DNA of 36,110 bases from a virus (lineage: Duplodnaviria > Heunggongvirae > Uroviricota > Caudoviricetes), in the IMG/VR virus record IMGVR_UViG_2585427735_000020, one strand, 5' to 3'. The translations under genes were made by a program, and so were the position numbers. This document shows positions 2,012-36,110 of this stretch, piece by piece; the first letter of the stretch is position 1, and each line of letters opens with the position of its first letter. The notes beneath the pieces were generated by a model. It was not told the DNA's origin, searched no databases, and worked only from the letters and a program-made list of their open reading frames with translations.

Positions 2012-2088
2012 AATTACTCCGATTGCATAATTTCTTGCTGATGGTGTGAAATGTTGTGCTTCTGGAGTTATCCTTTTAGGCAATAATT

Positions 2089-2107: not shown

Positions 2108-2132
2108 AAGCACTAAGGGAGAATCGTAGCAG

Positions 2133-6269: not shown

Positions 6270-6451
6270 AAGCGGGGAGTGGTCTTCAAAATGCTCCTGT
6301 AGCATTACGTGTAGACTTATAATAGAAATTATATACAAATCAATAAGTTATTTTTGTTTTGTATTATGTGTTGATGCTTTGGTTTCATAATGTAAAAATT
6401 ATCAGAAATTCTCTGCTTGTAGTTTCGTCATATAACGAAAGGGATTGCTTA

Positions 6452-18984: not shown

Positions 18985-19050
18985 TTGTGCCATTCCCGAC
19001 CCCTCATCGTCACATTGCCGCCGGTATGACCCGGCGGCATCCTTCCCGTT

Positions 19051-20034: not shown

Positions 20035-20943
20035 ATGCCGATTATCGACCTGAACCAGCTACCTGCACCGGATGTGGTCGAGGAGCTGGACTTTGAAACC
20101 ATTCTTGCCGAACGCAAGGCGACACTGATTTCCCTTTACCCGGAAGACCAGCAGGAGGCGGTCGCCCGTACCCTGACGCTGGAATCCGAGCCTCTCGTCA
20201 AACTGCTGGAGGAAAATGCGTATCGTGAGCTTCTCTGGCGTCAGCGTGTGAATGAGGCCGCACGGGCGGTGATGCTGGCCTGTGCCGCGGGTAATGACCT
20301 TGATGTGATTGGTGCCAATTACAACACCACGCGTCTGACTATCACCCCGGCAGATGATTCGACCATCCCGCCGACACCGGCAGTGATGGAATCTGACACC
20401 GATTATCGTCTGCGTATTCAGCAGGCGTTTGAAGGTTTAAGCGTCGCCGGGTCGGTGGGTGCCTATCAGTATCATGGCCGCAGTGCCGACGGGCGTGTCG
20501 CGGATATCTCTGTCACCAGTCCGTCTCCGGCCTGCGTCACTATCTCTGTGCTGTCACGTGAAAATAACGGCGTCGCATCCGAAGACCTGCTGGCTGTGGT
20601 GCGTAACGCCCTTAATGGCGAGGACGTCAGGCCGGTGGCCGACCGCGTGACCGTGCAGTCTGCCGCCATCGTTGAATACCAGATAAACGCCACGCTTTAC
20701 CTTTACCCTGGTCCCGAAAGCGAACCCATCCGCGCTGCTGCCGTGAAAAAGCTGGAAGCGTATATCACGGCACAGCACCGGCTGGGGCGCGACATCCGTC
20801 TGTCTGCCATTTATGCCGCTTTGCATGTGGAAGGTGTGCAGCGTGTCGAACTGGCTGCACCACTGGCCGACATCGTGCTCAACAGTACGCAGGCGTCTTT
20901 CTGTACCGAATACCGCGTCGTGACCGGAGGCTCGGATGAGTGA
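20035..20943 (+). CDS. J: Baseplate protein gpJ, 302 aa
   Basis: 302 aa; P2 order. Confidence 0.85.
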   Translation: MPIIDLNQLPAPDVVEELDFETILAERKATLISLYPEDQQEAVARTLTLESEPLVKLLEENAYRELLWRQRVNEAARAVMLACAAGNDLDVIGANYNTTRLTITPADDSTIPPTPAVMESDTDYRLRIQQAFEGLSVAGSVGAYQYHGRSADGRVADISVTSPSPACVTISVLSRENNGVASEDLLAVVRNALNGEDVRPVADRVTVQSAAIVEYQINATLYLYPGPESEPIRAAAVKKLEAYITAQHRLGRDIRLSAIYAALHVEGVQRVELAAPLADIVLNSTQASFCTEYRVVTGGSDE

Positions 20944-21465
20944 TTCGCGACTGCTGCCGACCGGCTCATCACCGCTGAGGTCGCCGCCGCAAAAGCCTGT
21001 GCGGAAATTGAAAAAACGCCGGTCAGTATTCGTGAGCAGTGGAACCCGGACACCTGTCCGGCAAATCTGCTGCCGTGGCTGGCGTGGGCGTTTTCGGTCG
21101 ACAGGTGGGATGAAAAGTGGCCGGAAGCGACAAAACGCGCCGTTATCCGCGATGCGTATTTCATCCACTGTCATAAAGGCACAATAGGTGCAATCCGGCG
21201 TGTGGTGGAGCCGCTCGGCTATCTCATCAACGTGACGGAGTGGTGGGAAAACAGTGACCCGCCCGGCACCTTCCGGCTTGATATTGGTGTACTGGAAAGC
21301 GGCATCACAGAGGCAATGTATCAGGAAATGGAACGGCTGATTGCTGATGCCAAACCTGCAAGCCGCCACCTTATTGGCCTGAACATTACCCGGGACATTC
21401 CCGGCTACCTGTTCGCCGGTGGTGTGGCTTACGACGGCGATGTAATTACGGTTTACCCCGGATAA
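20936..21465 (+). pseudogene. I: Baseplate gene I with apparent -1 frameshift near the 5' end
   Basis: ATG 20936 overlaps the J stop, but the native-looking product (...EVAAAKACAEIEKTPVSIREQWNPDTCPANLLPWLAWAFSVDRWDE...VITVYPG) is in the -1 frame from about 20977 to stop 21465; the ATG frame gives an Arg-rich junk ORF; total span equals the P2 gpI length. Confidence 0.6.
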
Positions 21466-21475: not shown

Positions 21476-23794
21476 ATGAGCACAAAATTCAGAACCGTTA
21501 TCACCACTGCCGGTGCAGCAAAGCTGGCAGCGGCAACCGCACCGGGAGGGCGGAAGGTCAACATTACCACGATGGCCGTCGGGGATGGCGGTGGTAAATT
21601 GCCTGTCCCGGATGCCGGACAGACCGGGCTTATCCACGAAGTCTGGCGACATGCGCTGAACAAAATCAGCCAGGACAAACGAAACAGTAATTATATTATC
21701 GCAGAGCTGGTTATTCCGCCGGAGGTGGGCGGTTTCTGGATGCGTGAGCTTGGCCTGTACGATGATGCGGGAACGTTAATTGCTGTGGCGAACATGGCCG
21801 AAAGTTATAAGCCAGCTCTTGCCGAAGGCTCAGGGCGTTCGCAGACCTGCCGTATGGTCATCATCGTCAGCAGTGTGACCTCAGTGGCGCTGACCATTGA
21901 CACCACAACGGTGATGGCGACGCAGGATTACGTTGATGACAAAATTGCAGAGCATGAACAGTCACGACGTCACCCGGACGCCTCGCTGACCGCAAAAGGT
22001 TTTACTCAGTTAAGCAATGCGACCAACAGCACGTCTGAAACACTGGCCGCAACGCCGAAAGCGGTAAAGGCCGCGTATGATCTTGCTAACGGGAAATACA
22101 CTGCGCAGGATGCCACCACAGCGCGAAAAGGTCTTGTCCAGCTCAGTAGCGCCACCAACAGCACGTCTGAAACGCTCGCCGCAACACCAAAAGCGGTAAA
22201 GGCAGCATATGACCTTGCTAACGGGAAATACACTGCACAGGACGCCACCACAGCGCGAAAAGGTCTTGTCCAGCTCAGTAGCGCCACCAACAGCGATTCT
22301 GAAACGCTTGCGGCAACGCCAAAGGCGGTTAAGACAGCGTATGACCTTGCTAACGGGAAATACACTGCACAGGACGCCACCACGGCGCGGAAAGGTCTTG
22401 TCCAGCTCAGTAGCGCCACCAACAGTGATTCTGAAACGCTGGCCGCAACATCAAAAGCGGTGAAGTCTGCCTATGACAATGCTGAAAAACGTCTTCAGAA
22501 AGATCAGAACGGTGCGGATATTCCGGGAAAGGATACCTTCACGAAAAATATCGGTGCCTGTCGTGCTTATAGCGGCGCTTTGAGCACTGAAGCCGGAAAC
22601 TGGACAACCGCTCAGTTTATTGAATGGCTGGATTCCCGTGGTGCATTTAATCATCCGTACTGGATGTGCAAAGGCTCATGGTCATATGCAAATAACAAAA
22701 TCATTACGGATACCGGATGTGGTGATATCCACCTGGATGGTTGTGTCGTCGAGGTCATGGGAACTAAATCTGCAATCACTATCCGAGTGACCACGCCGAC
22801 AACATCAAGTGGTGGCGGTACAACCAGCGCGCAATTCACTTACATTAATCATGGGGACGGCTACTCCCCCGGCTGGCGTCGTGACTGGAATCGTCAGGGC
22901 GACTCAATGACCGGAACGATTAATCAGGATGGCGGAAGCCAGAATGCCTATATGTCTACGGCCTTATGTTCAGGCACCAGAGGCGGCAAAAAATATCTCA
23001 GAAAGTTTCGTGGTGGAGAAGGAGACACTATCTGGCATGAAACAGTACAGGGCGGGGTAGTTCGCTGGGCGACTGGTAATACTGATGCTCAGGAAGAATT
23101 ATCACTCAGCTCCGCTTATGGTCTCCGTTCAAGAGGTGAGATTACATCACTCAGTGCTAATGGTCTGCGCATTGCTTATGGCAATTATGGTTTCTTTATC
23201 AGGAATGATGGCAGCAGCACTTATTTTATGTTGACTAAATCAGGTGACAGATTAGGCAGTTATAATAATTTAAGACCGCTGATTATAAATGATGCCACGG
23301 GTGCTGTATCAATGGGGCATGGCCTGAATGTTACTGGTGATATTGTCTCAAGTACCAAAGTACGTGCCGGTAGCGGGAAAAAATTCACGGTCAGCAGCAG
23401 TAATACATCCACGAAGGAAGCCGCATTCAATTTGTGGGGAAACTCAAGTCGTCCGGTGGTGGCTGAATTAGGTGATGATGCAGGCTGGCATTTTTACAGT
23501 CAGAGAAATACAGATAACAGCATCACTTTTGCTGTTAACGGGCAGGTATCACCATCTAACTATGGCAACTTTGATTCACGCTATGTCCGGGATATCCGGC
23601 TTGGTGGTGCTGCCACATACAAACCTGCGAACAATGGCATGACATGGACACATCAGGCACCGTCCGGGTGTGTATATTCCGGCATTATTGTTCAGGATAC
23701 CGGCTCAAACTCTGCCGATAACATTGGTGGCATATATTACAGACCGGTGCAGAAATACATTAACGGGACATGGTATAACGTGGCGCAGGTATAA
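21476..23794 (+). CDS. H: Tail fibre protein gpH, 772 aa, with internal tandem repeats
   Basis: Conserved N-terminal tail-fibre region, then 132-nt repeats, then a lower-GC C-terminal receptor-binding region. Confidence 0.85.
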   Translation: MSTKFRTVITTAGAAKLAAATAPGGRKVNITTMAVGDGGGKLPVPDAGQTGLIHEVWRHALNKISQDKRNSNYIIAELVIPPEVGGFWMRELGLYDDAGTLIAVANMAESYKPALAEGSGRSQTCRMVIIVSSVTSVALTIDTTTVMATQDYVDDKIAEHEQSRRHPDASLTAKGFTQLSNATNSTSETLAATPKAVKAAYDLANGKYTAQDATTARKGLVQLSSATNSTSETLAATPKAVKAAYDLANGKYTAQDATTARKGLVQLSSATNSDSETLAATPKAVKTAYDLANGKYTAQDATTARKGLVQLSSATNSDSETLAATSKAVKSAYDNAEKRLQKDQNGADIPGKDTFTKNIGACRAYSGALSTEAGNWTTAQFIEWLDSRGAFNHPYWMCKGSWSYANNKIITDTGCGDIHLDGCVVEVMGTKSAITIRVTTPTTSSGGGTTSAQFTYINHGDGYSPGWRRDWNRQGDSMTGTINQDGGSQNAYMSTALCSGTRGGKKYLRKFRGGEGDTIWHETVQGGVVRWATGNTDAQEELSLSSAYGLRSRGEITSLSANGLRIAYGNYGFFIRNDGSSTYFMLTKSGDRLGSYNNLRPLIINDATGAVSMGHGLNVTGDIVSSTKVRAGSGKKFTVSSSNTSTKEAAFNLWGNSSRPVVAELGDDAGWHFYSQRNTDNSITFAVNGQVSPSNYGNFDSRYVRDIRLGGAATYKPANNGMTWTHQAPSGCVYSGIIVQDTGSNSADNIGGIYYRPVQKYINGTWYNVAQV
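21995..22500 (+). repeat. In-frame tandem repeat inside H: 132-nt (44-aa) unit, about 3.7 copies
   Basis: Units start at 21995, 22127, 22259, 22391; unit is KGLVQLSSATNS(T/D)SETLAATPKAVKAAYDLANGKYTAQDATTAR. Confidence 0.85.
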
Positions 23795-23797
23795 TTT

Positions 23798-24325
23798 ATG
23801 CAGCATTTGATAAATATAACGGTGGGTAATCCAAAAACGGTTGAACAATATCAATTGACAAAGGACTTTGATGTTGTCTGGTTTTTTTCAGAAGATGGTA
23901 AGAACTGGTACGAAGAACAAAAGTATTTTGCTGATGACACGATAAAAATAGCGTACGACAAAGATAATATTATCCGCTATGTGGAAAAGGATGTGACAGC
24001 TATCAGACCAGATGGATTAAGTGTGGTTGAAGTGGCGGATATTACTGCTAACCGACGGGCGGACATTTCAGGGAACTGGATGTTTAAGGACGGCAAAGTG
24101 ATTAAACGCATTTATACGGCAGAGGAATTGCAGCAGCAGGCAGAAAACCGGAAAGCCAGACTTCTTGCAGATGCTGAATCCGTGATTTTGCCACTGGAGC
24201 GCGCTGTCAGGCTGAACATGGCAACAGATGAGGAGCGTAGCCGACTGGAAGCATGGGAACGCTACAGTGTTCTGGTCAGCCGTGTGGATCCTGCAAATCC
24301 TGAATGGCCGGAAATGCCGCAATAA
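23798..24325 (+). CDS. G: Tail fibre assembly chaperone gpG, 175 aa
   Basis: 175 aa immediately after H. Confidence 0.8.
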
Positions 24326-24410: not shown

Positions 24411-24734
24411 GTTACTACTACTCGACCTAAAGTAAAGTAATTGTACTCATTAAATAGTGGTAATTGGGTCTGGTGCTTAATCGAACGAAATCTCATGTTA
24501 GGCGAAAAAAACGTCTGAAAAATCGATTAACACATACACCTGTGTACTATGGCCGTTATTCAATTTAAAAGGAACCATTTCCGATATGATTCACTGTCCA
24601 TAATGTTTTGATTTATTAAAAAAGAGCCTTAGAGTGTGAAACCATTACGTTGAGTGGCGAACACCATTAATAAATTCTGCTTATACTTACAGCATATATT
24701 ATGTTCACGTCATATAACCATGGCAAATAAGATA

Positions 24735-24763
24735 TTGCACATCAAGCATGATTATGATAGTGA
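24735..24763 (+). promoter_or_regulatory. Candidate sigma70-like promoter for the first cargo-2 gene
   Basis: TTGCAC (24735..24740) with TATGAT/TAGTGA-like hexamers 13-18 bp downstream in an AT-rich intergenic region; weak. Confidence 0.2.
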
Positions 24764-24800
24764 TTACAAAAATGAAGAATCTTAGATAAAGGATTAGTAA

Positions 24801-25736
24801 GTGGTTACATATAATTCAATGTTGTTACCCCCCCCTAAATCTTGGGACGAATTTGAGGATATGTGCAAAAGTTCATTCCAACTGCGATGGTCCAATCCTA
24901 ATCTGAACAGACATGGACGGTCAGGGCAGCGGCAGGATGGAGTTGATGTATATGGTGATGACTCTCTTGGGCGTTTCGTTGGAATTCAGTGTAAAAATAC
25001 AGTATCAGGAATCAGTACGGCGACAATCGATGATGAATTACTCAAGGCTGAAAAATTTCGCCCAAAAATTACGGTTCTTTACATCGCTACGACAGCGCCC
25101 AGGGATGTTAGCATTCAGCGCTATGTAAGAACACTCAATGATGCCAGACAATTAAAAGGCCTGTTTCCTGTCGATGTGGTTTTCTGGGAGGATATTAGCT
25201 TTGATTTAAGCAAAGACCCAGCTGTACTCAAAATGTACTACCCGCAAATGTTCGAACGACACCAACCGACGAGGGAAGAATTTTTGCGCAAGAGAGATAT
25301 CTCAAATTTGTCGACATTGTTGAATGTTATTGATTTTCATTCAACAATAGACCATTTGCAGTGGGGCGCAAAATACATTCATTCATTAATTATTGAAGAA
25401 TACGATAATATTTTGAACATTTTAAACTCACCTGTTTTTCAACTGAATGATACAGCTTTAAAGAATGTTACAATTGATTTTGCAACGGCCTGGCGTGATC
25501 TAATTATCTTGTTTAGAAAAGCTCCATATAATTATTCAGCACCAAATGATACTTTTAGTTTTATAAATCCCGGTGACCACTGTCGAAATCAGGAGGAAAG
25601 CGATTTATACGACGAAATCACGCATAGCATGAGTAATCTCAAAGATAAAATTAGTACTTTTTGTGACTTTATAAATAATCACTACCATGAAATAAACTTA
25701 ACCGAAACGAGCGCGCAAGCCAGGAAATATTATTAA
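24801..25736 (+). CDS. Cargo protein, 311 aa: Mrr-type PD-(D/E)xK restriction-endonuclease-like N-terminal domain + uncharacterised C-terminal domain
   Basis: GTG start 7 nt after AAAGGA; FEDM...RHGRSGQRQDGVDVYGDD...GRFVGIQCKNT (nt about 24912..24998) resembles the Mrr catalytic core (D...D...QxK); AT-rich, between G and FI. Confidence 0.55.
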   Translation: MVTYNSMLLPPPKSWDEFEDMCKSSFQLRWSNPNLNRHGRSGQRQDGVDVYGDDSLGRFVGIQCKNTVSGISTATIDDELLKAEKFRPKITVLYIATTAPRDVSIQRYVRTLNDARQLKGLFPVDVVFWEDISFDLSKDPAVLKMYYPQMFERHQPTREEFLRKRDISNLSTLLNVIDFHSTIDHLQWGAKYIHSLIIEEYDNILNILNSPVFQLNDTALKNVTIDFATAWRDLIILFRKAPYNYSAPNDTFSFINPGDHCRNQEESDLYDEITHSMSNLKDKISTFCDFINNHYHEINLTETSAQARKYY

Positions 25737-26518
25737 TACTTTTTTCTTAAGGGCTGCACTCATGGCCCTTAACACCGTTAGACTGTCATATTTTGCAATC
25801 GATACGCAGTTAGGTACTTTCTTGAAGTCCGTTCCTCGCTCATAGCTGACATTCAGCTCAATTAAATCGTCCACTTCGCTCCAACAGAAGGCGTAGCTAA
25901 TCATACTGTGTATTAAAGAAAGGAGAAACGATCATGTTGAGTACAAAAAACACGAAAGACCATGATAAGGAAAATATGCGTAGAGTGACTTAGTTTATTG
26001 ATTTAAATAATATTTATGGGGGTAAGTGCTTTGAATAAAAAAACAAAAATTGAGAAGATTTAGCTAGTGCCAAAATAATTTGGACACCGCCCGTCATCAG
26101 ACCCGCTACTACACTTATCACCCCAGCCCAAAAAGTTTCAATGAAACAAGATACATATAGTAGTACAACATGGCGGAATAATTTACTCATAGGCTTCTCC
26201 TTACTGACGTAATCGTTAAGTAACGTTGAGGTAACGGATAAATGCGACTATTGGGAGAGCTGTGATGAGAATTGTAGGCATAGGAATCGAACCTATGGAT
26301 GCACTAGCTAAATTCACTCTTCACGAATTATACAGCATTGTAGTGAGTTTGTAAATACACGCCCCAAAAGTCAATCAGTCCGATCCATGAATGTTGTGTC
26401 AGTACTACTAAAGTTAAACATGCTAAAATAGGTTCCCAATATTCGTGGGTACAATCACTATCTGTGTAACTGGCGGAAGCGCTGGCATAACGACGATGCC
26501 TATTCGGGGGGCTTTAAT

Positions 26519-27385
26519 ATGGTCCGTTTTAACTTACTAGAAAATGCGTTGGATTCAGTGGAAACCGGGCTGGACTACTTTAACAAAGCGCTAGAAGGGC
26601 ATGATCGACGTGACTACAAACAGTGCCTGCTTAACCTCTTTCAGGCCGCTGAGCTATTGTTGAAGGCCGTAGTTTCGCGCAATGGGTCTGGAGCGATTTT
26701 TAATCCAGCATCGCTTCAAGAAAAATGTGTGGATCCGGCGCATCCAACCGAGTCAGAATTACACCAGTGTAAATCTGTCAACGTCAACCAGCTTTGTAAG
26801 CTGTTAAAGACATATTACCCAGCCGAATTTTCTGAATCTGCATTACAAATGATGAAAACGGTGGGTCAGTTGCGTAATAACCTTCAGCATTTTGCCCTTG
26901 AGGTTCGTCCGCAAGAACTGGCAATGCAACTGAGTGAACTGTACCAACAAATTTTTCGTCCCGCATTCGTCATAATTCAGTCAGATGAGACCGAAAATTC
27001 ATGGAACTCTGATTTACGTCAAGACATCATCGCTCTTGAGCAACAATTCCTTGATATAACTGTTAACCAGGAATACACCCTTGCACTTTGTCCCGTTTGT
27101 GAGAGTTTTTCACATTTTATCCTTTACCAAGGTGAAAGCTTTCCGGCACGGACTCACTGTATCTGTTGTGGTTTCAGCCTGAATAATCTGCAAACTTGGG
27201 ATTTTCAGGAATGTCCTGAATGTAGTGTCCCATCCGTAATTTATTTACCGGAACAAAGGGTCGGTGTCTGTCTCTGGTATAAATGTGAATACAGCAAGAT
27301 GGATGGTTTTGTTCCTATGGAGCCTTGTGAATGTGGTGCATTCCGGATGGAAGGTCATTGCAGTAACTGCGATCTTGAGGAATAG
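26519..27385 (+). CDS. Cargo protein, 288 aa: HEPN-like helical N-terminal domain (Rx4H) + C-terminal multi zinc-ribbon domain
   Basis: ATG 26519 after a G-rich SD; LRNNLQH at 26873..26890; CPVC, CICC, CPEC, Cx4C, CEC, CSNC pairs across 27089..27370. Confidence 0.55.
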   Translation: MVRFNLLENALDSVETGLDYFNKALEGHDRRDYKQCLLNLFQAAELLLKAVVSRNGSGAIFNPASLQEKCVDPAHPTESELHQCKSVNVNQLCKLLKTYYPAEFSESALQMMKTVGQLRNNLQHFALEVRPQELAMQLSELYQQIFRPAFVIIQSDETENSWNSDLRQDIIALEQQFLDITVNQEYTLALCPVCESFSHFILYQGESFPARTHCICCGFSLNNLQTWDFQECPECSVPSVIYLPEQRVGVCLWYKCEYSKMDGFVPMEPCECGAFRMEGHCSNCDLEE

Positions 27386-27747
27386 TAAAATCGTCCGATG
27401 AGAATGTACAGCAGCCTGGTCGATGATTTCTTGATGAATCGCTGAATTATCCGGTATTACTTGACAACTAAATCGCACATTTCTGTTTCTGGCAATTTGA
27501 AAGGTTTACTCTATGCCCCAGAATTCAGCACATACATAAAAACACCATTTCAGAACGCGTCTTGATCCAAAGAACGACTGTATGATAGATAGGCGTCGTC
27601 GTGAGGACAGGAATGATCTACCCCCCGTTATTCATACAGAATGCTGTTAGTAATGTCCGCAGATCGCTCAAAGCAGACTGTCAGATTTGATAGCGTTTGG
27701 GCTATGTAAGTAGCCAGTTGGAGAATGAGTGAGTGCAAATCAGGACT

Positions 27748-27873: not shown

Positions 27874-29064
27874 ATGAGTGACTATCATCACGGCGTGCAG
27901 GTGCTGGAGATTAACGACGGCACCCGCGTCATTTCCACCGTATCCACTGCCATTGTCGGCATGGTCTGCACGGCCAGCGATGCGGATGCGGGAACCTTCC
28001 CCCTCAATAAACCTGTGCTGATTACCAATGTGCAGAGCGCAATTGCAAAGGCCGGTAAAAAAGGCACGCTGGCGGCATCGTTGCAGGCCATCGCTGACCA
28101 GTCAAAACCGGTCACCGTTGTCGTGCGCGTGGAAGACGGCACCGGCGACGACGAAGAAACGAAACTCGCGCAGACTGTTTCCAATATCATCGGCACCACC
28201 GACGAAAACGGTCAGTACACCGGACTGAAAGCCCTGCTGGCGGCGGAGTCGGTAACCGGTGTTAAACCGCGTATTCTCGGTGTGCCGGGACTGGATACCA
28301 AAGAGGTGGCTGTTGCACTGGCATCCGTCTGTCAGAAGCTGCGCGCTTTCGGGTATATCAGCGCATGGGGCTGTAAAACCATTTCCGAGGTGAAAGCCTA
28401 CCGCCAGAATTTCAGCCAGCGTGAGCTGATGGTCATCTGGCCGGATTTCCTCGCATGGGATACGGTCACCAGTACCACCGCCACCGCGTATGCCACCGCC
28501 CGTGCGCTGGGGCTGCGCGCTAAAATCGACCAGGAGCAGGGCTGGCATAAAACGCTGTCCAATGTCGGGGTGAACGGTGTTACCGGCATCAGCGCCTCTG
28601 TATTCTGGGATTTGCAGGAGTCCGGCACCGATGCTGACCTGCTTAACGAGTCAGGCGTCACAACGCTGATTCGCCGTGACGGTTTCCGATTCTGGGGTAA
28701 CCGTACCTGCTCTGATGACCCGCTGTTCCTCTTTGAAAACTACACTCGCACCGCGCAGGTGCTGGCCGACACGATGGCTGAGGCGCACATGTGGGCGGTG
28801 GACAAGCCCATCACCGCAACGCTGATTCGCGACATCGTTGACGGCATCAATGCCAAATTCCGTGAGCTGAAAACAAACGGCTATATCGTGGATGCGACCT
28901 GCTGGTTCAGCGAAGAATCCAACGATGCGGAAACCCTTAAGGCCGGAAAACTGTATATCGACTACGACTATACTCCGGTGCCTCCTCTTGAAAACCTGAC
29001 CCTGCGCCAGCGTATTACCGATAAATACCTGGCAAATCTGGTCACCTCGGTTAACAGCAATTAA
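27874..29064 (+). CDS. FI: Contractile tail sheath protein gpFI, 396 aa
   Basis: 396 aa; GGAG SD; P2 order. Confidence 0.9.
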   Translation: MSDYHHGVQVLEINDGTRVISTVSTAIVGMVCTASDADAGTFPLNKPVLITNVQSAIAKAGKKGTLAASLQAIADQSKPVTVVVRVEDGTGDDEETKLAQTVSNIIGTTDENGQYTGLKALLAAESVTGVKPRILGVPGLDTKEVAVALASVCQKLRAFGYISAWGCKTISEVKAYRQNFSQRELMVIWPDFLAWDTVTSTTATAYATARALGLRAKIDQEQGWHKTLSNVGVNGVTGISASVFWDLQESGTDADLLNESGVTTLIRRDGFRFWGNRTCSDDPLFLFENYTRTAQVLADTMAEAHMWAVDKPITATLIRDIVDGINAKFRELKTNGYIVDATCWFSEESNDAETLKAGKLYIDYDYTPVPPLENLTLRQRITDKYLANLVTSVNSN

Positions 29065-29076: not shown

Positions 29077-29595
29077 ATGGCAATGCCGCGCAAACTCAAG
29101 TTAATGAACGTCTTTCTGAACGGCTACAGCTATCAGGGCGTTGCAAAGTCCGTCACGCTGCCAAAACTGACCCGTAAGCTCGAAAACTATCGCGGTGCGG
29201 GGATGAACGGCAGCGCACCGGTAGACCTCGGCCTTGATGACGATGCGCTGTCAATGGAGTGGTCGCTCGGGGGCTTCCCGGATTCGGTTATCTGGGAGCT
29301 TTACGCCGCAACCGGTGTGGATGCCGTGCCGATTCGTTTTGCAGGCTCTTACCAGCGCGACGATACCGGCGAAACGGTGGCCGTCGAGGTGGTCATGCGT
29401 GGACGTCAGAAAGAAATCGACACCGGCGAGGGTAAACAGGGAGAAGACACCGAGTCGAAAATCTCCGTGGTCTGCACCTATTTCCGGCTGACGATGGACG
29501 GTAAGGAGCTGGTCGAAATCGACACCATCAACATGATTGAGAAGGTGAACGGCGTCGACCGGCTGGAGCAACACCGCTGCAATATCGGCCTGTGA
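29077..29595 (+). CDS. FII: Tail tube protein gpFII, 172 aa
   Basis: 172 aa; P2 order. Confidence 0.9.
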   Translation: MAMPRKLKLMNVFLNGYSYQGVAKSVTLPKLTRKLENYRGAGMNGSAPVDLGLDDDALSMEWSLGGFPDSVIWELYAATGVDAVPIRFAGSYQRDDTGETVAVEVVMRGRQKEIDTGEGKQGEDTESKISVVCTYFRLTMDGKELVEIDTINMIEKVNGVDRLEQHRCNIGL

Positions 29596-29651
29596 TTTTC
29601 ATACGGTCAGCCAGGCTGACCGGTTAACCCCGATTCAGAAGTGAGAAAACC

Positions 29652-29927
29652 ATGGACAAAGAAAATGTCATTACCCTGGAAAATCCGGTCAAACGTGGTG
29701 AGCAGGTTATCGAACAGGTCACGCTGATGAAACCCAGTGCCGGGACGCTGCGCGGTGTCAGTCTGGCTGCGGTCGCAAACTCCGAAGTCGATGCACTGAT
29801 TAAAGTGCTGCCGCGCATGACGGCACCGATGCTGACCGAGCAGGAAGTCGCCGCGCTGGAACTGCCTGACCTTGTGGCGCTGGCCGGTAAGGTGGTCGGT
29901 TTTTTGTCGCCGAACTCGGTGCAGTAA
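29652..29927 (+). CDS. E: Tail assembly chaperone gpE, 91 aa
   Basis: 91 aa ending just after the slippery site. Confidence 0.8.
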   Translation: MDKENVITLENPVKRGEQVIEQVTLMKPSAGTLRGVSLAAVANSEVDALIKVLPRMTAPMLTEQEVAALELPDLVALAGKVVGFLSPNSVQ

Positions 29928-30079
29928 CGTTTCCTAAAAATCTGTCGGTCGATGACCTGATGGCGGATGTGGCAGTGATATTTCACTGGCCGCCATCAGA
30001 ACTGTATCCCATGAGTCTGACCGAACTCATCACATGGCGCGAAAAGGCGCTCCGGCGAAGCGGAAACACGAATGAGTAA
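29652..30079 (+). CDS. gpE+E' frameshift fusion product (tail assembly chaperone, long form)
   Basis: -1 frame continues ...FFVAELGAVTFPKNLSVDDLMADVAVIFHWPPSELYPMSLTELITWREKALRRSGNTNE to stop 30079. Confidence 0.65.
29900..29906 (+). other. Programmed -1 ribosomal frameshift slippery heptamer TTTTTTG (E to E')
   Basis: T6G inside the E 3' end; the -1 frame stays open to stop 30077..30079 overlapping the T start, giving an E+E' fusion of about 142 aa. Confidence 0.7.
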
Positions 30080-32519
30080 CAATGTAAAATTACAGGTATT
30101 GCTCAGGGCTGTTGACCAGGCATCCCGCCCGTTTAAATCCATCCGCACAGCGAGCAAATCGCTGTCGGGGGATATCCGGGAAACACAAAAATCACTGCGC
30201 GAGCTGAACGGTCAGGCATCCCGTATTGAGGGATTCCGCAAGACCAGTGCACAGCTCGCCGTGACTGGTCATGCACTTGAAAAGGCACGGCAGGAGGCCG
30301 AAGCCCTTGCCACACAGTTTAAAAACACCGAGCGTCCGACCCGTGCTCAGGCGAAAGTGCTGGAATCCGCAAAGCGAGCAGCGGAGGACTTACAGGCGAA
30401 ATATAACCGCCTGACGGATTCCGTTAAACGCCAGCAGCGGGAACTGGCTGCTGTGGGAATTAATACCCGCAATCTTGCACATGATGAGCAGGGGCTGAAA
30501 AACCGTATCAGTGAAACCACCGCGCAGCTTAACCGGCAGCGTGACGCGCTGGCGCGTGTCAGTGCGCAACAGGCAAAACTTAACGCAGTAAAACAGCGTT
30601 ATCAGGCCGGAAAGGAACTGGCCGGAAATATGGCCTCAGTGGGCGCTGCCGGTGTGGGGATTGCGGCGGCGGGAACGATGGCCGGTGTTAAGCTACTGAT
30701 GCCCGGTTATGAGTTTGCGCAGAAAAACTCAGAATTGCAGGCCGTGCTCGGTGTGGCAAAAGACTCCGCCGAAATGGCTGCACTACGCAAGCAGGCGCGC
30801 CAGCTCGGCGACAACACCGCCGCTTCGGCGGATGATGCTGCCGGTGCACAGATTATTATCGCGAAAGCCGGTGGGGATGTTGATGCCATTCAGGCGGCAA
30901 CGCCGGTCACGCTGAACATGGCGCTGGCGAACCGCCGCACGATGGAAGAAAACGCCGCCCTGCTGATGGGGATGAAATCCGCCTTTCAGCTTTCAAACGA
31001 TAAGGTCGCTCATATCGGGGATGTTCTCTCCATGACGATGAACAAAACCGCCGCCGATTTTGACGGTATGAGCGATGCGCTGACCTATGCCGCACCAGTG
31101 GCAAAAAATGCCGGTGTCAGCATTGAAGAAACCGCCGCAATGGTCGGGGCGCTGCATGATGCAAAAATTACCGGTTCAATGGCGGGGACGGGAAGCCGTG
31201 CCGTGTTAAGTCGCCTGCAGGCACCAACGGGAAAAGCATGGGATGCACTCAAAGAACTTGGCGTGAAAACCTCAGACAGCAAGGGAAACACCCGACCAGT
31301 ATTTACCATTCTGAAAGAAATGCAGGCCAGTTTTGAGAAAAACCGGCTCGGTACTGCCCAGCAGGCTGAATACATGAAAACTATTTTCGGGGAGGAGGCC
31401 AGCTCAGCCGCCGCCGTGCTGATGACTGCCGCCTCAACCGGAAAGCTGGACAAACTGACCGCTGCGTTTAAAGCCTCAGACGGGAAGACCTCAGAGCTGG
31501 TAAATATCATGCAGGACAACCTCGGCGGTGACTTTAAGGAGTTTCAGTCCGCTTATGAGGCGGTGGGGACTGACCTGTTTGACCAGCAGGAAGGCGCACT
31601 GCGTAAGCTCACACAGACGGCCACAAAGTATGTGTTAAAACTCGACGGCTGGATACAGAAAAACAAATCACTGGCGTCAACCATTGGCCTCATTGCCGGT
31701 GGCGCGCTGGCGCTTACTGGCATCATCGGTGCCATTGGTCTTGTAGCCTGGCCGGTTATCACCGGCATCAATGCCATCATCGCGGCAGCAGGCGCAATGG
31801 GGGCAATCTTCACGACGGTTGGCAGTGCCGTTATGACGGCCATCGGGGCGATTAGCTGGCCGGTTGTGGCCGTGGTGGCCGCTATTGTCGCCGGGGCGTT
31901 ACTTATCCGTAAATACTGGGAGCCTGTCAGCGCATTCTTTGGCGGTGTGGTTGAAGGGCTGAAAGCGGCATTTGCGCCGGTGGGGGAACTGTTCACGCCA
32001 CTTAAGCCGCTGTTTGACTGGCTGGGTGAAAAGTTACAGGCCGCGTGGCAGTGGTTTAAAAACCTGATTGCCCCGGTTAAAGCCACCCAGGACACACTGA
32101 ACCGTTGCCGTGACACGGGCGTCATGTTCGGGCAGGCACTGGCTGACGCGCTGATGCTGCCGCTTAATGCGTTCAACAAACTGCGCAGCGGTATTGACTG
32201 GGTACTGGAAAAACTCGGTGTTATCAACAAAGAGTCAGACACACTTGACCAGACCGCCGCAAGGACTCATGCCGCCACGTATGGCACCGGTGGTTATATT
32301 CCGGCGACCAGCTCTTATGCAGGCTATCAGGCTTATCAGCCGGTCACGGCACCGGCTGGCCGCTCTTATGTGGACCAGAGTAAAAACGAATATCACATCA
32401 GCCTGACGGGTGGTACTGCGCCGGGGACACAGCTTGACCGCCAGTTACAGGATGCGCTCGAAAAATACGAGCGGGATAAACGTGCGCGCGCCCGTGCCAG
32501 CATGATGCATGACGGTTAA
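30072..32519 (+). CDS. T: Tail tape measure protein gpT, 815 aa
   Basis: 815 aa, coiled-coil N-terminus, Gly/Ala-rich hydrophobic middle; P2 order. Confidence 0.9.
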   Translation: MSNNVKLQVLLRAVDQASRPFKSIRTASKSLSGDIRETQKSLRELNGQASRIEGFRKTSAQLAVTGHALEKARQEAEALATQFKNTERPTRAQAKVLESAKRAAEDLQAKYNRLTDSVKRQQRELAAVGINTRNLAHDEQGLKNRISETTAQLNRQRDALARVSAQQAKLNAVKQRYQAGKELAGNMASVGAAGVGIAAAGTMAGVKLLMPGYEFAQKNSELQAVLGVAKDSAEMAALRKQARQLGDNTAASADDAAGAQIIIAKAGGDVDAIQAATPVTLNMALANRRTMEENAALLMGMKSAFQLSNDKVAHIGDVLSMTMNKTAADFDGMSDALTYAAPVAKNAGVSIEETAAMVGALHDAKITGSMAGTGSRAVLSRLQAPTGKAWDALKELGVKTSDSKGNTRPVFTILKEMQASFEKNRLGTAQQAEYMKTIFGEEASSAAAVLMTAASTGKLDKLTAAFKASDGKTSELVNIMQDNLGGDFKEFQSAYEAVGTDLFDQQEGALRKLTQTATKYVLKLDGWIQKNKSLASTIGLIAGGALALTGIIGAIGLVAWPVITGINAIIAAAGAMGAIFTTVGSAVMTAIGAISWPVVAVVAAIVAGALLIRKYWEPVSAFFGGVVEGLKAAFAPVGELFTPLKPLFDWLGEKLQAAWQWFKNLIAPVKATQDTLNRCRDTGVMFGQALADALMLPLNAFNKLRSGIDWVLEKLGVINKESDTLDQTAARTHAATYGTGGYIPATSSYAGYQAYQPVTAPAGRSYVDQSKNEYHISLTGGTAPGTQLDRQLQDALEKYERDKRARARASMMHDG

Positions 32520-32533: not shown

Positions 32534-33013
32534 ATGATGCTCGCGTTAGGTATGTTTGTTTTTATGCGCCAGACGCTGCCACACCAGACCATGCAGCGTG
32601 AATCGGATTATCGCTGGCCGTCAAATTCCCGTATCGGTAAACGGGATGCCTTTCAGTTTCTCGGTGTGGGTGAGGAAAACATCACGCTGGCCGGTGTGCT
32701 TTATCCCGAACTGACCGGCGGAAAGCTGACGATGACCACGCTCAGACTGATGGCAGAGGAAGGCCGGGCGTGGCCGTTGCTGGATGGCACCGGCATGATT
32801 TACGGCATGTATGTCATCAGCAGGGTGAGTGAAACAGGGAGTATTTTCTTTGCAGACGGCACACCCCGGAAAATTGATTTTACGCTGTCGCTCACCCGCG
32901 TTGATGAATCACTGGCCGCGCTTTATGGCGATATCGGTAAACAGGCGGAATCGCTCATCGGTAAGGCTGGCAGTATGGAGACCAGATTCACGGGTATGAC
33001 GGGGGCGGGATAA
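32534..33013 (+). CDS. U: Tail protein gpU, 159 aa
   Basis: 159 aa; P2 order. Confidence 0.85.
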   Translation: MMLALGMFVFMRQTLPHQTMQRESDYRWPSNSRIGKRDAFQFLGVGEENITLAGVLYPELTGGKLTMTTLRLMAEEGRAWPLLDGTGMIYGMYVISRVSETGSIFFADGTPRKIDFTLSLTRVDESLAALYGDIGKQAESLIGKAGSMETRFTGMTGAG

Positions 33014-34176
33014 TGCTGGATACGCTGACATTTGATGCAGGCAGTACGCTGACGCCGGATTACATGCTGATGCTCGACAGCAGGGATATTACCGGCAATA
33101 TCAGCGACCGTCTGATGAGCATGACCCTGACGGATAACCGGGGCTTTGAGGCTGACCAGCTTGATATTGAACTGAACGATGCCGACGGGCAGGTCGGGCT
33201 GCCGGTTCGTGGCGCTGTCCTGACGGTGTATATCGGCTGGAAAGGGTTTGCCCTGGTATGCAAAGGGAAATTTACCGTTGATGAGGTTGAACACCGGGGC
33301 GCACCGGATGTGGTCACCATCCGTGCCCGGAGTGCAGATTTTCGCGGGACGCTCAATTCCCGCCGGGAAGGCTCATGGCATGACACCACGCTCGGTGCGA
33401 TTGTTGAGGCGATAGCCTCCCGTAACAGGCTGGAAGCCAGTGTCGCTCCGTCACTGGCCGGAATTAAAATCCCGCACATCGACCAGTCGCAGGAGTCTGA
33501 TGCGAAATTTCTGACCCGTCTTGCAGAACGCAACGGCGGTGAGGTGTCGGTAAAAATGGGAAAACTGCTGTTTCTCAAAGCGGGGCTGGGGGTGACGGCC
33601 AGCGGTAAAAAAATCCCGCAGATTACCATAACCCGCAGCGACGGCGACCGTCATCATTTTGCGATTGCTGACCGTGGAGCCTATACCGGCGTAACGGCAA
33701 AGTGGTTACACACCAAAGACCCGAAGCCACAAAAGCAGAAGGTAAAACTGAAACGCAAAAAGAAAGAGAAACACCTGCGCGCACTGGAGCACCCGAAAGC
33801 GAAACCAGTCACGCAGAAGAAAGCGCCAAAAGTACCGGAAGCGCGCGAAGGTGAATACATGGCTGGTGAGGCTGACAACGTTTTTGCCCTGACCACGGTA
33901 TATGCCACGAAAGCGCAGGCCATGCGCGCCGCTCAGGCGAAGTGGGATAAGCTGCAACGGGGCGTTGCGGAGTTCTCCATCAGTCTGGCTACTGGTCGGG
34001 CAGATATTTACACGGAAACGCCGGTCAAAGTGTCAGGCTTTAAGCGCGTCATAGACGAGCAGGACTGGACAATCACTAAGGTGACACATTTTCTGAATAA
34101 TAGCGGCTTCACGACGTCCTTGGAGCTTGAGGTCAGGCTTTCTGATGTGGAGTACGAAACAGAAGATGATGAGTGA
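33013..34176 (+). CDS. D: Tail protein gpD, 387 aa
   Basis: 387 aa; lysine-rich internal linker; P2 order. Confidence 0.85.
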   Translation: MLDTLTFDAGSTLTPDYMLMLDSRDITGNISDRLMSMTLTDNRGFEADQLDIELNDADGQVGLPVRGAVLTVYIGWKGFALVCKGKFTVDEVEHRGAPDVVTIRARSADFRGTLNSRREGSWHDTTLGAIVEAIASRNRLEASVAPSLAGIKIPHIDQSQESDAKFLTRLAERNGGEVSVKMGKLLFLKAGLGVTASGKKIPQITITRSDGDRHHFAIADRGAYTGVTAKWLHTKDPKPQKQKVKLKRKKKEKHLRALEHPKAKPVTQKKAPKVPEAREGEYMAGEADNVFALTTVYATKAQAMRAAQAKWDKLQRGVAEFSISLATGRADIYTETPVKVSGFKRVIDEQDWTITKVTHFLNNSGFTTSLELEVRLSDVEYETEDDE

Positions 34177-34576: not shown

Positions 34577-34604
34577 TAAAAAATAAGCCCGTGTAAGGGA
34601 GATT
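34577..34604. repeat. attR core, 28-bp direct repeat identical to attL
   Basis: Exact copy of 476..503; forms the 3' terminator end of the cyaR sRNA. Confidence 0.85.
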
Positions 34605-34664
34605 ACACAGGCTAAGGAGGTGGTTCCTGGTACAGCTAGCATTTTATGGGTTATGTTTTTCAGC
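34578..34664 (-). ncRNA. cyaR: CyaR (RyeE) Hfq-dependent small RNA
   Basis: Minus-strand sequence GCTGAAAAACATAACCCATAAAATGCTAGCTGTACCAGGAACCACCTCCTTAGCCTGTGTAATCTCCCTTACACGGGCTTATTTTTT matches CyaR as I recall it; 3' end overlaps the att core. Confidence 0.6.
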
Positions 34665-34748
34665 GAAACGGATGATAACCTTAATAAATGCAGCTGTATG
34701 TGATCGGTTTCTAAGAATTTTCCATCCGGGAAAAATAATCGAAATTAA

Positions 34749-36110
34749 TCACTTACCGTGGGGATTACGCGTGGTTTCCCCGGAGAAATTACGCATCAGC
34801 AGCGCGTAATTGAGCTCAAGATCCTGCGGGACCGGGAGCCACACAGTATAACCATCGCCTGGTGCTATCGGCATAGCTTCGCCTTTGGCGTTTTCCATGT
34901 GCTCAAGGGTAAAATTAATGTTGCCTTGCGGCGTCATCAGCTCAAGGCTGTCGCCAACGGAGAATTTATTTTTCACCGCTACCGCCGCGAGGTCCCCCTT
35001 GCGCTCACCGGTAAACTCACCAACAAACTGCTGGCGGTCAGAAACTGAATAACCGTATTCGTAGTTCTGATAATCGTCGTGAGTATGACGACGCAGGAAA
35101 CCTTCGGTATAGCCACGATGCGCCAGACCTTCCAGAGTTTCCAGCAGGCTGGTATCGAACGGTTTTCCCGCAGCGGCGTCATCGATAGCTTTGCGGTAAA
35201 CCTGTGCGGTGCGTGCACAATAGTAGAAAGATTTGGTACGACCTTCGATTTTCAGCGAATGCACGCCCATTTTGGTCAGGCGTTCTACATGGGCGATGGC
35301 GCGCAGATCTTTCGAGTTCATGATGTAAGTGCCGTGCTCATCTTCAAACGCGGTCATATACTCGCCCGGACGCTGGGCCTCTTCGATCATAAACACTTTG
35401 TCGGTTGGTGCGCCGATACCCAGCGTCGGCTCAACATTTTGCACCGGAATCGGCTCGTACTTGTGTACGATGTTGCCAACATCATCTTCTTTCCCTTCCT
35501 GGACGTTGTACTCCCAGCGGCAGGCGTTGGTGCAGGTGCCCTGGTTCGGGTCGCGCTTGTTGATATAGCCAGAGAGCAGGCAGCGACCGGAGTAGGCCAT
35601 GCACAGCGCGCCGTGAACGAAGATCTCGATCTCCATATCCGGCACCTGATTGCGGATCTCTTCAATCTCTTCCAGCGACAGCTCGCGAGAGAGGATCACG
35701 CGGGTCAGGCCCATTTGCTGCCAGAATTTCACCGTCGCCCAGTTCACGGCGTTAGCCTGCACCGAAAGGTGGATCGGCATTTCAGGGAAGTGCTCACGCA
35801 CCAGCATAATCAGCCCTGGATCGGACATAATCAGCGCATCCGGCCCCATTTCCACCACCGGTTTCAGGTCACGGATAAAGGTTTTCAGCTTGGCGTTGTG
35901 CGGTGCAATGTTGACCACGACATAAAACTTTTTCCCCAGCGCGTGGGCTTCATTGATGCCGAGCTGAAGATTTTCGTGGTTGAATTCGTTGTTGCGCACA
36001 CGCAGGGAATAACGCGGCTGGCCCGCATAAACAGCATCTGCGCCATAAGCGAAAGCGTAACGCATATTTTTCAGCGTTCCCGCCGGGGAAAGGAGTTCCG
36101 GTTTAAACAT
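34749..36110 (-). CDS. yegQ: Peptidase U32-family protein YegQ (TrhP-like), 453 aa
   Basis: Full-length 453-aa ORF starting MFKPELLSPAGTLKNMRYAFAYGADAVYAGQPRYSLRV; host gene flanking attR; starts exactly at the window end. Confidence 0.85.
   Translation of the reverse strand: MFKPELLSPAGTLKNMRYAFAYGADAVYAGQPRYSLRVRNNEFNHENLQLGINEAHALGKKFYVVVNIAPHNAKLKTFIRDLKPVVEMGPDALIMSDPGLIMLVREHFPEMPIHLSVQANAVNWATVKFWQQMGLTRVILSRELSLEEIEEIRNQVPDMEIEIFVHGALCMAYSGRCLLSGYINKRDPNQGTCTNACRWEYNVQEGKEDDVGNIVHKYEPIPVQNVEPTLGIGAPTDKVFMIEEAQRPGEYMTAFEDEHGTYIMNSKDLRAIAHVERLTKMGVHSLKIEGRTKSFYYCARTAQVYRKAIDDAAAGKPFDTSLLETLEGLAHRGYTEGFLRRHTHDDYQNYEYGYSVSDRQQFVGEFTGERKGDLAAVAVKNKFSVGDSLELMTPQGNINFTLEHMENAKGEAMPIAPGDGYTVWLPVPQDLELNYALLMRNFSGETTRNPHGK

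What the first reader, a model, noticed from the sequence alone, without database searches (positions are those of the whole stretch)
29900..30079. Conserved T6G programmed -1 frameshift producing gpE+E'
The slippery heptamer and a downstream -1 ORF ending at the T start are intact. This shows the tail morphogenesis module is otherwise well preserved, in contrast to the frameshifts in cox and I.
Basis: established knowledge. Interest (0 to 1): 0.2.

Follow-up and report, generated by a model that had tools for sequence, protein, structure and literature searches.

The report
P2 tail chaperone E/E' frameshift site
This is the well-known programmed -1 ribosomal frameshift of phage P2 that makes two tail-assembly chaperones (gpE and gpE+E') from one start codon, intact in a P2-like prophage of E. 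coli; it is ordinary and already described.

Summary
Gene E (29652..29927, 91 aa) carries T TTT TTG at 29900..29906 in the X XXY YYZ register. The -1 frame is open from there to TAA 30077..30079, which overlaps the ATG of tape-measure gene T (30072). The fused product (join 29652..29906, 29906..30079; 142 aa) differs from P2 gpE+E' at two N-terminal residues. P2's GenBank record marks the frameshift at the homologous base.

The E part matches Pfam Phage_TAC_7 and the -1 part matches Phage_P2_GpE (1e-21). In 12 of 12 phage records and 178 of 178 evaluable IMG/VR loci, from E. coli to Burkholderia phages, T TTT TTN is kept in register with an open -1 frame. Third-codon-position variability switches from the E frame to the -1 frame at the heptamer, including upstream of the internal ATG that PGAP uses as a separate start.

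No conserved downstream RNA structure was found.

One small addition: a strong Shine-Dalgarno-like AAGGTGGTC lies 2 nt upstream of the heptamer, and one of its synonymous sites never varies. It may modulate shifting; this is untested.

Verdict: confirmed, already known, low interest.

The parts
29077..29595 (+). FII, the tail tube gene, the upstream neighbour that defines the chaperone position
   Evidence: Pfam PF04985 Phage_tube at 1.6e-59; 99.4% amino-acid identity to P2 gpFII over 172/172 residues
29604..29622 (+). Hairpin CGGTCAGC-CAG-GCTGACCG in the FII-E intergenic region, at the position of the 'tI partial terminator' annotated in phage 186. It may lower expression of E/T/U/D relative to sheath and tube (inferred).
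   Evidence: Fold (8-bp stem; z-score for the whole stretch only -1.35); 186 annotation; similar sequence in P2 and 186
29652..29927 (+). Gene E: tail assembly chaperone, 91 aa, the 0-frame product
   Evidence: ORF; PF10109 Phage_TAC_7 at 2.1e-12; phrog_103 at 2.5e-44; 97.8% identity to P2 gpE
29889..29897 (+). Shine-Dalgarno-like AAGGTGGTC, 2 nt upstream of the heptamer; a candidate 5' modulator of frameshifting (inferred, untested)
   Evidence: Predicted duplex with the 16S 3' end is -12.8 kcal/mol, top 0.1% of 10-mers in the 21-kb late region. Present at the same offset in 28/32 distinct upstream contexts and in most of the Klebsiella-type clade. The third base of GTG (29894) is invariant in 72 distinct sequences, one of only 2 invariant sites among 39 four-fold sites.
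29900..29906 (+). Slippery heptamer T TTT TTG (X XXY YYZ in the E frame), the site of the -1 shift
   Evidence: P2 annotates the frameshift site at the homologous position. Invariant T6 in 78 distinct sequences, including three synonymous sites. Kept in register in all relatives.
29906..30079 (+). E' segment: the -1 frame read after the shift (G29906 is read twice), 57 codons plus TAA. The full product gpE+E' is join(29652..29906, 29906..30079), 142 aa.
   Evidence: Translation; PF06528 Phage_P2_GpE at 1.2e-21 on residues 104-139; phrog_1756 covers residues 82-142; third-position variability follows the -1 frame from the heptamer onward
29907..29927 (+). Dual-coding overlap: the last 6 sense codons and stop of E in frame 0, and VAELGAV of E' in frame -1
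   Evidence: no single frame shows the usual third-position relaxation here
30072..32519 (+). Gene T, the tail tape measure protein. Its ATG overlaps the E' stop (ATGAGTAA). It is the client of the chaperones (by analogy with lambda G/GT-H).
   Evidence: ORF; PF10145 at 1.8e-45; 98.7% identity to P2 gpT over 815/815 residues

Best explanation
This is the programmed -1 ribosomal frameshift of the P2 FETUD tail operon, intact in a P2-like (Peduovirus) prophage of E. coli. Most ribosomes translating E read GGU UUU UUG UCG... and stop at UAA 29925..29927, giving the 91-aa chaperone gpE. With tRNA-Phe on UUU (P site) and tRNA-Leu on UUG (A site), a minority slip back one base onto U UUU UU. They then continue in the -1 frame (GUC GCC GAA...) for 57 more codons and end at UAA 30077..30079, over the start of T, giving the 142-aa gpE+E'. 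By analogy with lambda gpG/gpGT, the shared E domain binds the tape measure protein gpT. The rarer E' domain recruits tail tube subunits, so a fixed ratio of the two products is set by the slip frequency. What is shown here: the geometry, the homology, the conservation and the frame-specific selection. What is inferred: the slip itself, its frequency (about 10% in P2, from my recollection of Christie et al. 2002) and the chaperone roles, all taken from work on P2 and lambda. No downstream RNA structure appears to be involved. A conserved SD-like element just upstream may tune the efficiency; that is a hypothesis.
For: Register and open frame. 98% nt identity to P2, whose record annotates gpE, gpE+E' as a -1 frameshift join, and the shift site at the homologous base. 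Position between the tube and tape-measure genes, with PF10109 on E and PF06528 on the -1 part and PHROG tail families. The heptamer T TTT TTN is in register with an open -1 frame in 12/12 phage records spanning Peduovirus, Eganvirus, and Yersinia, Klebsiella and Burkholderia phages, and in 178/178 evaluable IMG/VR loci. Several of these records annotate the same join. Variability at codon position 3 is 0.20 in the E frame upstream of the heptamer. It is 0.22 and 0.12 in the -1 frame downstream, including the stretch between the E stop and the internal ATG. The synonymous sites inside the heptamer (GGT, TTT, TTG) are invariant, while neighbouring four-fold sites have a median minor-allele frequency of 0.17. 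Published statements: P2 shifts -1 at TTTTTTG to give the 91-aa E and 142-aa E+E', conserved in Burkholderia P2-like phages, with no downstream hairpin (PMC3091744). The lambda G/GT mechanism is described in PMC5009743.
Against: Nothing in the sequence argues against it. No expression data exist for this prophage, and the primary paper (Christie et al. 2002) could not be read here. UUUUUUG is not among the most shift-prone heptamers in E. coli, and no classical 3' stimulator was found. How a useful efficiency is reached is therefore not explained by sequence alone. The prophage has lesions in cox and I, so the operon may no longer be under selection in this particular host.
Confidence: 0.93

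Rival explanations
1. E' is a separate small gene translated from its own start codon ATG 29960 (39 aa), as NCBI's PGAP annotates it ('GpE family phage tail protein'), with no frameshift.
For: RefSeq annotation of an identical stretch gives a separate CDS at 29960..30079, and several phage records do the same. The Met is conserved in many relatives. The Pfam PF06528 model starts at that Met.
Against: The 33 nt between the E stop and that ATG evolve as -1-frame coding sequence, with position-3 variability of 0.22 against 0.07 and 0.05. The -1 frame is open from the heptamer in all relatives. The peptide upstream of the Met (V-A/T-E-x-G ... L-S/T-V-D-D-L) is conserved, and phrog_1756 aligns to residues 82-142. 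The Met is Val in the Klebsiella clade. Predicted anti-SD pairing upstream of 29960 is weak, -5.3 kcal/mol. This reading gives no reason for the invariant in-register heptamer. P2's record calls the fused product an essential tail protein.
Confidence: 0.03
2. The long product arises mainly from transcriptional slippage. RNA polymerase adds one extra U on the T6 run, and standard translation of that mRNA gives E+E' with Phe-Phe instead of Phe-Leu at the junction.
For: The T6 run is preceded by a weak hairpin, so the site scores as terminator-like (29879..29900 plus the T tract). That context could pause the polymerase. The sequence alone cannot tell the two routes apart.
Against: Efficient slippage in bacteria is described for runs of about 9 A or T (PMC5009743); here there are 6. 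The hairpin has four G-U pairs and no covariation support, with the observed pairing reached by 208/500 shuffles, and it is broken in relatives such as Kp4882-2. Conservation is of the register-specific X XXY YYZ pattern, with the seventh base G, A or C but the six T's fixed in frame, which fits tRNA re-pairing. The P2 literature and GenBank record describe a translational frameshift.
Confidence: 0.04

Closest known systems
Bacteriophage P2 gpE / gpE+E' -1 programmed frameshift (FETUD operon; Christie et al. 2002, J Bacteriol 184:6522; GenBank AF063097)
   Same: Same genes, same gene order (FII-E/E'-T), same heptamer at the homologous base, same lengths (91 and 142 aa), same overlap of the E' stop with the T start. 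419/428 nt and 140/142 aa are identical.
   Different: Two N-terminal substitutions (D2N, E10D) and 9 nt differences, including the E stop (TAA versus TGA). It sits in a prophage between yegR and yegQ that has different cargo genes, a different immunity repressor, and lesions in cox and I.
Phage 186 orf51/orf52 (gene H), PSP3 gp23/gp23.5 and other Peduoviridae E/E' homologues
   Same: The same T TTT TTG in register, 6 codons before the E stop and 57 codons of -1 frame, ending over the tape-measure start.
   Different: About 76% nt identity, and the E proteins carry a 20-aa N-terminal extension.
Phage lambda gpG / gpGT and the general tail assembly chaperone frameshift of dsDNA tailed phages (Levin et al. 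1993; Xu, Hendrix and Duda 2004)
   Same: Two overlapping ORFs between the major tail tube gene and the tape measure gene. A low-frequency -1 shift near the end of the first ORF. Products that are assembly chaperones rather than virion parts (PMC5009743; PMC3091744).
   Different: No detectable sequence similarity (different Pfam families). Lambda uses G GGA AAG. P2 has a contractile tail. The chaperone roles of E and E' are inferred by analogy and were not tested here.
E. coli dnaX -1 frameshift (A AAA AAG with a 5' SD-like element and a 3' stem-loop)
   Same: A tandem-slippage heptamer in E. coli, with an SD-like sequence upstream of the shift site.
   Different: No conserved 3' stem-loop. 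The SD-like element is closer: 7 nt from the G that would pair with 16S C1535 to the heptamer, against 9 in dnaX by my alignment. The published range for -1 stimulation is 9-14 nt counted from the SD (PMC5009743). Its role here is unproven.

Membership tests
P2-type gpE/gpE+E' tail chaperone frameshift (Peduoviridae) | Located between the tail tube gene (FII) and the tape measure gene (T) in the late tail operon | tested here: met
   FII 29077..29595 (PF04985), E 29652..29927, T 30072..32519 (PF10145)
P2-type gpE/gpE+E' tail chaperone frameshift (Peduoviridae) | The upstream ORF is a gpE homologue (Phage_TAC_7) | tested here: met
   PF10109 at 2.1e-12, 47.3 bits against a cut-off of 25; 97.8% identity to P2 gpE
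P2-type gpE/gpE+E' tail chaperone frameshift (Peduoviridae) | T TTT TTG heptamer in the X XXY YYZ register a few codons before the E stop | tested here: met
   29900..29906, 6 codons before the stop; homologous to the annotated P2 site
P2-type gpE/gpE+E' tail chaperone frameshift (Peduoviridae) | The -1 frame is open from the heptamer to the start of T and encodes the GpE (E') domain | tested here: met
   57 codons, PF06528 at 1.2e-21; -1 frame codon periodicity across relatives
P2-type gpE/gpE+E' tail chaperone frameshift (Peduoviridae) | A fused E+E' protein is actually produced at low frequency and is essential for tail assembly | not testable with these tools
   Known for P2 from the GenBank note 'essential tail protein' and from the literature. 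There are no expression data for this prophage.
General tailed-phage tail assembly chaperone frameshift (lambda G/GT type) | Two overlapping ORFs upstream of the tape measure gene, joined by a conserved slippery sequence | tested here: met
   conservation in 190 related loci
General tailed-phage tail assembly chaperone frameshift (lambda G/GT type) | The short product binds the tape measure protein, and the extension binds the tube protein | not testable with these tools
   Inferred from the lambda work summarised in PMC5009743. The single-sequence AlphaFold model was too poor to use (pLDDT 58).
dnaX-type stimulated -1 frameshift | SD-like element 9-14 nt 5' of the shift site | tested here: inconclusive
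   A strong SD-like AAGGTGGTC is present and conserved, but it ends 2 nt from the heptamer. The aligned spacing is 7 nt, just outside the published range.
dnaX-type stimulated -1 frameshift | Stable 3' stem-loop or pseudoknot 5-9 nt downstream | tested here: not met
   There is only a 3-5 bp CCG-N4-CGG hairpin starting 1 nt after the heptamer. Fold z-scores are -1.5 and -0.4, there is no covariation and there is no Rfam match.
Transcriptional slippage site | Homopolymer run long enough for RNA polymerase realignment (about 9 A or T in bacteria) | tested here: not met
   The run is T6; the length criterion comes from PMC5009743

The most novel reading that the evidence does not exclude
The conserved Shine-Dalgarno-like sequence (A/G)AGGTG(G/A)T that ends 2 nt upstream of the slippery heptamer may be a functional 5' element that sets the E:E+E' ratio. 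It would pair with the 16S rRNA 3' end of the elongating ribosome at a shorter spacing than in dnaX and IS elements. That would explain how a weak UUUUUUG site works without any 3' structure. The evidence does not exclude this and mildly favours nucleotide-level selection: the motif is in the top 0.1% for anti-SD pairing, it sits at a fixed offset in most clades, and one four-fold site in it never varies. Codon preference for GTG and the shared ancestry of the sequences could also explain these observations.
Probability: 0.25. Interest if true: 0.3.

Novelty: already known. Interest (0 to 1): 0.08.

Why it matters
Little is new biologically. It confirms that the FETUD tail operon of this prophage still carries its recoding signal, so the tail tube, tape-measure and chaperone part of the module looks functional even though cox (excision) and I (baseplate) are broken. 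The practical point is annotation. Automatic pipelines (PGAP, and many phage records) split E' off as a separate 39-aa gene from an internal ATG instead of joining it to E. About 29% of complete E. coli genomes (1582 of 5426) carry this region, so the mis-annotation is widespread. The conserved SD-like element next to the slip site is a cheap hypothesis to test about how frameshift efficiency is set in the absence of a 3' stimulator.

Tried and rejected
1. **Downstream stimulatory structure.** Folding 29907..29990 and 29880..29960 gave z-scores of -1.5 and -0.4. The small hairpin 29908..29921 keeps only its CCG/CGG core, and its outer pairs break in relatives (for example A-C in 9 contexts). 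Pair counting showed no excess over shuffles.
2. **Upstream hairpin 29879..29900 that makes the T6 run look like a terminator.** It has four G-U pairs, no covariation, and is broken in several relatives. Rejected as a conserved element.
3. **RNAalifold on 33 diverse contexts.** It proposed only a weak long-range pairing of 29890..29898 with 29950..29958 (-5.3 kcal/mol, essentially no compensatory changes). The 5' arm would be inside the ribosome at the moment of slippage, so this was rejected.
4. **Rfam scan of 29550..30150.** One chance hit far below threshold.
5. **PDB sequence search with the E+E' profile.** Nothing below E = 0.38.
6. **Structure prediction.** The single-sequence model had pLDDT 58 with the E' part below 50, so no fold search was run.
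7. **NCBIfam.** No model matched.
8. **The primary P2 paper (PMC135442).** It is not held in the library, so the figure of about 10% efficiency rests on my memory of its abstract.
9. **Large protein-database searches.** Deliberately not used, because the answer did not depend on them.

Full report
**What is there.** The window is a P2-like (Peduovirus) prophage integrated between the E. coli genes yegR (1..318) and yegQ (34749..36110, minus strand). It is about 96-98% identical to phage P2 over the shared genes. In the late tail operon the gene order is:

- FI, tail sheath: 27874..29064
- FII, tail tube: 29077..29595
- E: 29652..29927
- T, tape measure: 30072..32519
- U: 32534..33013
- D: 33013..34176

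All of these are full length at 98-99% amino-acid identity to P2.

**The observation.** E is a 91-codon ORF. Its last codons read ...AAG GTG GTC GGT TTT TTG TCG CCG AAC TCG GTG CAG TAA. TTTTTTG therefore occupies 29900..29906 in the X XXY YYZ register of the E frame.

The -1 frame has a stop at 29888..29890 and is then open to TAA 30077..30079. A ribosome that slips back one base after decoding UUG reads 57 further codons (VAELGAVTFPKNLSVDDLMADVAVIFHWPPSELYPMSLTELITWREKALRRSGNTNE). T's ATG is at 30072, so the E' stop and the T start overlap as ATGAGTAA.

The finding's coordinates (29900..30079) are exact: the first base of the heptamer to the last base of the E' stop.

**Is it more than chance?** I listed every in-register XXXYYYZ heptamer in 37 genes of the window and found 47. 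Only three lead to a -1 reading that passes the 0-frame stop, and this is one of them. The other two simply run into the next overlapping gene.

The -1 peptide matches Pfam PF06528 (Phage_P2_GpE) at 1.2e-21, and E matches PF10109 (Phage_TAC_7: 'tail assembly chaperone proteins E, or 41 or 14') at 2.1e-12. PHROG tail families 103 and 1756 cover the two parts. Family 1756 aligns to residues 82-142, which begins at the shift site, not at the internal Met.

**Identity with the known P2 element.** The 428 nt from the E start to the E' stop differ from P2 (AF063097) at 9 positions, none in the heptamer. The fused proteins differ only at D2N and E10D. The P2 record annotates gpE, gpE+E' ('shares amino terminus with gpE; -1 frameshift; essential tail protein') and a 'site of -1 translational frameshift' that maps to window 29907. 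Lynch et al. 2010 (PMC3091744) state three things:

- In P2 the -1 shift occurs at TTTTTTG and gives the 91-aa E and the 142-aa E+E'.
- The site is conserved in Burkholderia P2-like phages.
- No downstream hairpin is present.

From memory, Christie et al. 2002 measured about 10% shifting and showed E' to be essential. That paper is not in the library.

**Conservation in relatives.** I fetched 12 phage records from the closest to the most distant blastn hits: P2, 186, PSP3, EtG, an Enterobacter phage, two Yersinia enterocolitica phages, four Klebsiella phages and Burkholderia phage Mana. All 12 have T TTT TTN in register near the end of the E homologue and an open -1 frame of 56-58 codons ending over the tape-measure start. 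Eleven have TTTTTTG and one has TTTTTTC.

Three scans of IMG/VR gave 179 loci, one of them truncated. All 178 evaluable loci keep the heptamer in register with the open -1 frame. The seventh base is G in most, A in 6 and C in 2.

The region is present in 1582 of 5426 complete E. coli genomes.

**Evidence of translation in the -1 frame.** In 78 distinct 330-nt sequences with the same geometry, mean minor-allele frequency by codon position (positions 1/2/3) is:

| Stretch | Frame | Pos 1 | Pos 2 | Pos 3 |
|---|---|---|---|---|
| Upstream of the heptamer | E frame | 0.05 | 0.03 | 0.20 |
| E stop to the internal ATG (29928..29959) | -1 frame | 0.07 | 0.05 | 0.22 |
| ATG 29960 to the end | -1 frame | 0.04 | 0.02 | 0.12 |

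The frame under purifying selection switches at the heptamer, and the stretch upstream of ATG 29960 is coding. This argues against the PGAP-style annotation of E' as an independent 39-aa gene. Three further points argue the same way: anti-SD pairing before that ATG is weak (-5.3 kcal/mol), the Met is replaced by Val in the Klebsiella clade, and the peptide upstream of it is conserved.

Inside the heptamer, the synonymous sites (third base of GGT, third base of TTT, first base of TTG) never vary. Neighbouring four-fold sites have a median minor-allele frequency of 0.17.

**Stimulators.** No conserved 3' structure was found.

- The only local hairpin (29908..29921) starts 1 nt after the heptamer, retains only a CCG/CGG core in relatives, and shows no compensatory change.
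- Fold z-scores are unremarkable, pair counts do not exceed shuffles, and Rfam finds nothing. This agrees with the literature.
- A weak hairpin upstream makes the T6 run score as terminator-like, but it is not conserved.

What does stand out is AAGGTGGTC at 29889..29897:

- Its predicted duplex with the 16S 3' end is -12.8 kcal/mol, in the top 0.1% of all 10-mers in the 21-kb late region.
- An equivalent (A/G)AGGTG(G/A)T sits at the same offset in 28 of 32 distinct upstream contexts, and in most Klebsiella-type and several more distant loci. The Burkholderia Mana group has GGAG 8 nt upstream instead.
- Of 39 four-fold degenerate codons in the last 200 nt of E, only two have an invariant third base in 72 distinct sequences. 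One is the GGT that starts the heptamer and the other is the GTG inside this motif.

The motif ends 2 nt from the heptamer. Counted from the G that would pair with 16S C1535, the spacing is 7 nt, against 9 for dnaX by my alignment. The range quoted for -1 stimulation is 9-14 nt from the SD (PMC5009743 section 36).

A role as a 5' modulator is therefore possible but unproven. Codon preference for GTG, protein constraint on K/E-V, and the relatedness of the sequences are alternative explanations. I found no paper in the held library that mentions such an element for P2.

**Mechanism.**

- *Best explanation (0.93).* Tandem -1 ribosomal slippage occurs on U UUU UUG, with tRNA-Phe in the P site and tRNA-Leu in the A site. 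It gives a minority fused product that supplies the E' domain. By analogy with lambda G/GT, E binds the tape measure protein and E' recruits tube subunits.
- *Rival: independent initiation at ATG 29960 (0.03).*
- *Rival: transcriptional slippage on T6 (0.04).* The run is well below the roughly 9 nt described for bacteria. This route is distinguishable by the junction residue, Leu versus Phe.

It holds. cox carries a 5-nt insertion (GATGC, 2231..2235) relative to the closest intact relative, CP031321, which splits the reading frame. Baseplate gene I lacks one T at about 20976 (CCGCTTGAGG in P2, CCGCTGAGG here), so codons 1-14 and 15-176 are in different frames. The best E. coli matches have 802 nt where the window has 801. 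Whether these are real mutations or sequencing errors cannot be told from the sequence.

**Verdict.** The element is the textbook P2 E/E' recoding site and is already known, so interest is low. The only mildly new point is the conserved SD-like motif beside the slip site.

Noticed in passing
window 2133..2410 (insertion at 2231..2235): cox is split by a 5-nt insertion (GATGC) relative to the closest intact relative (E. coli CP031321, 99.1% identical, cox 91 aa). Residues 1-36 and 34-91 lie in different frames. No complete E. coli genome in the collection carries the identical sequence.
   Followed up: yes
window 20936..21465 (deletion at about 20976): Baseplate gene I has a 1-nt deletion (CCGCTTGAGG in P2, CCGCTGAGG here), so codons 1-14 and 15-176 are in different frames. 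The best E. coli matches have 802 nt where the window has 801. It could be a real mutation or a sequencing error.
   Followed up: partly
window 6359..9487 (+): A 1042-aa ORF with a SIR2-like domain occupies the hotspot where P2 carries old and tin. It matches PF13289 at 2.6e-7 and PADLOC SIR2 models associated with pAgo systems at 1e-15. It is probably an anti-phage defence cargo gene.
   Followed up: partly
window 24414..27650 (ORFs 24801..25736 and 26519..27385, +): The fun(Z) hotspot between G and FI holds different cargo. A 288-aa ORF matches PADLOC candidate system PDC-S64 (3.7e-21), and a 311-aa ORF has no Pfam or PADLOC match.
   Followed up: partly
window 4167..6269 (+): Replication gene A matches P2 gpA only for residues 1-680 of 761. 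The ORF then diverges and ends at 6269 (700 aa), next to the cargo region, so the C-terminus is replaced or truncated.
   Followed up: no
window 2549..2555 and 3875..3881 (+): Two more in-register slippery heptamers lie near gene ends, with a -1 frame that runs into the next gene. They are A AAA AAG, 12 codons before the orf78 stop (running into B), and A AAA AAC, 7 codons before the orf82 stop (running into orf83). Both are also present in P2 and in another E. coli prophage. They are likely a by-product of ATGA gene overlaps, but A AAA AAG is the most shift-prone heptamer in E. coli.
   Followed up: partly
window 29889..29897 (+): A strong Shine-Dalgarno-like AAGGTGGTC lies 2 nt upstream of the slippery heptamer. 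It is in the top 0.1% for anti-SD pairing in the late region, is conserved at a fixed offset in most relatives, and contains an invariant four-fold site. It may modulate frameshifting; this is untested.
   Followed up: partly
window 29604..29622 (+): An 8-bp hairpin in the FII-E intergenic region lies at the position annotated in phage 186 as the 'tI partial terminator'. It has no T tract. It may attenuate transcription into E/T/U/D.
   Followed up: partly
window 29960..30079, and L013 (NZ_LR778153.1) at the same coordinates: RefSeq/PGAP and many phage records annotate E' as an independent 39-40 aa 'GpE family phage tail protein' that starts at an internal ATG or GTG, instead of joining it to E. 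This is a widespread annotation artefact.
   Followed up: yes
window 1712..2011 (-): The immunity repressor C is only 65% identical to P2 C, and the 1842..2154 region has no megablast match to P2. This prophage therefore has a different immunity type from P2.
   Followed up: no
window 21476..24325 (+): Tail fibre gene H is mosaic and longer than in P2 (772 versus 669 aa). Residues 1-251 are 95% identical to P2, followed by extra copies of the fibre repeat, and the C-terminus is only 57% identical. The assembly gene G is 75% identical. This suggests a different host range.
   Followed up: no
window 18986..19051: P2 orf30 (between S and V, minus strand) is absent.
   Followed up: no
window 1..476 and 34604..36110: The prophage sits between yegR and yegQ, with ogr next to yegQ. 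From my own knowledge, this is the locus that holds a cryptic P2 remnant (ogrK) in E. coli K-12.
   Followed up: partly
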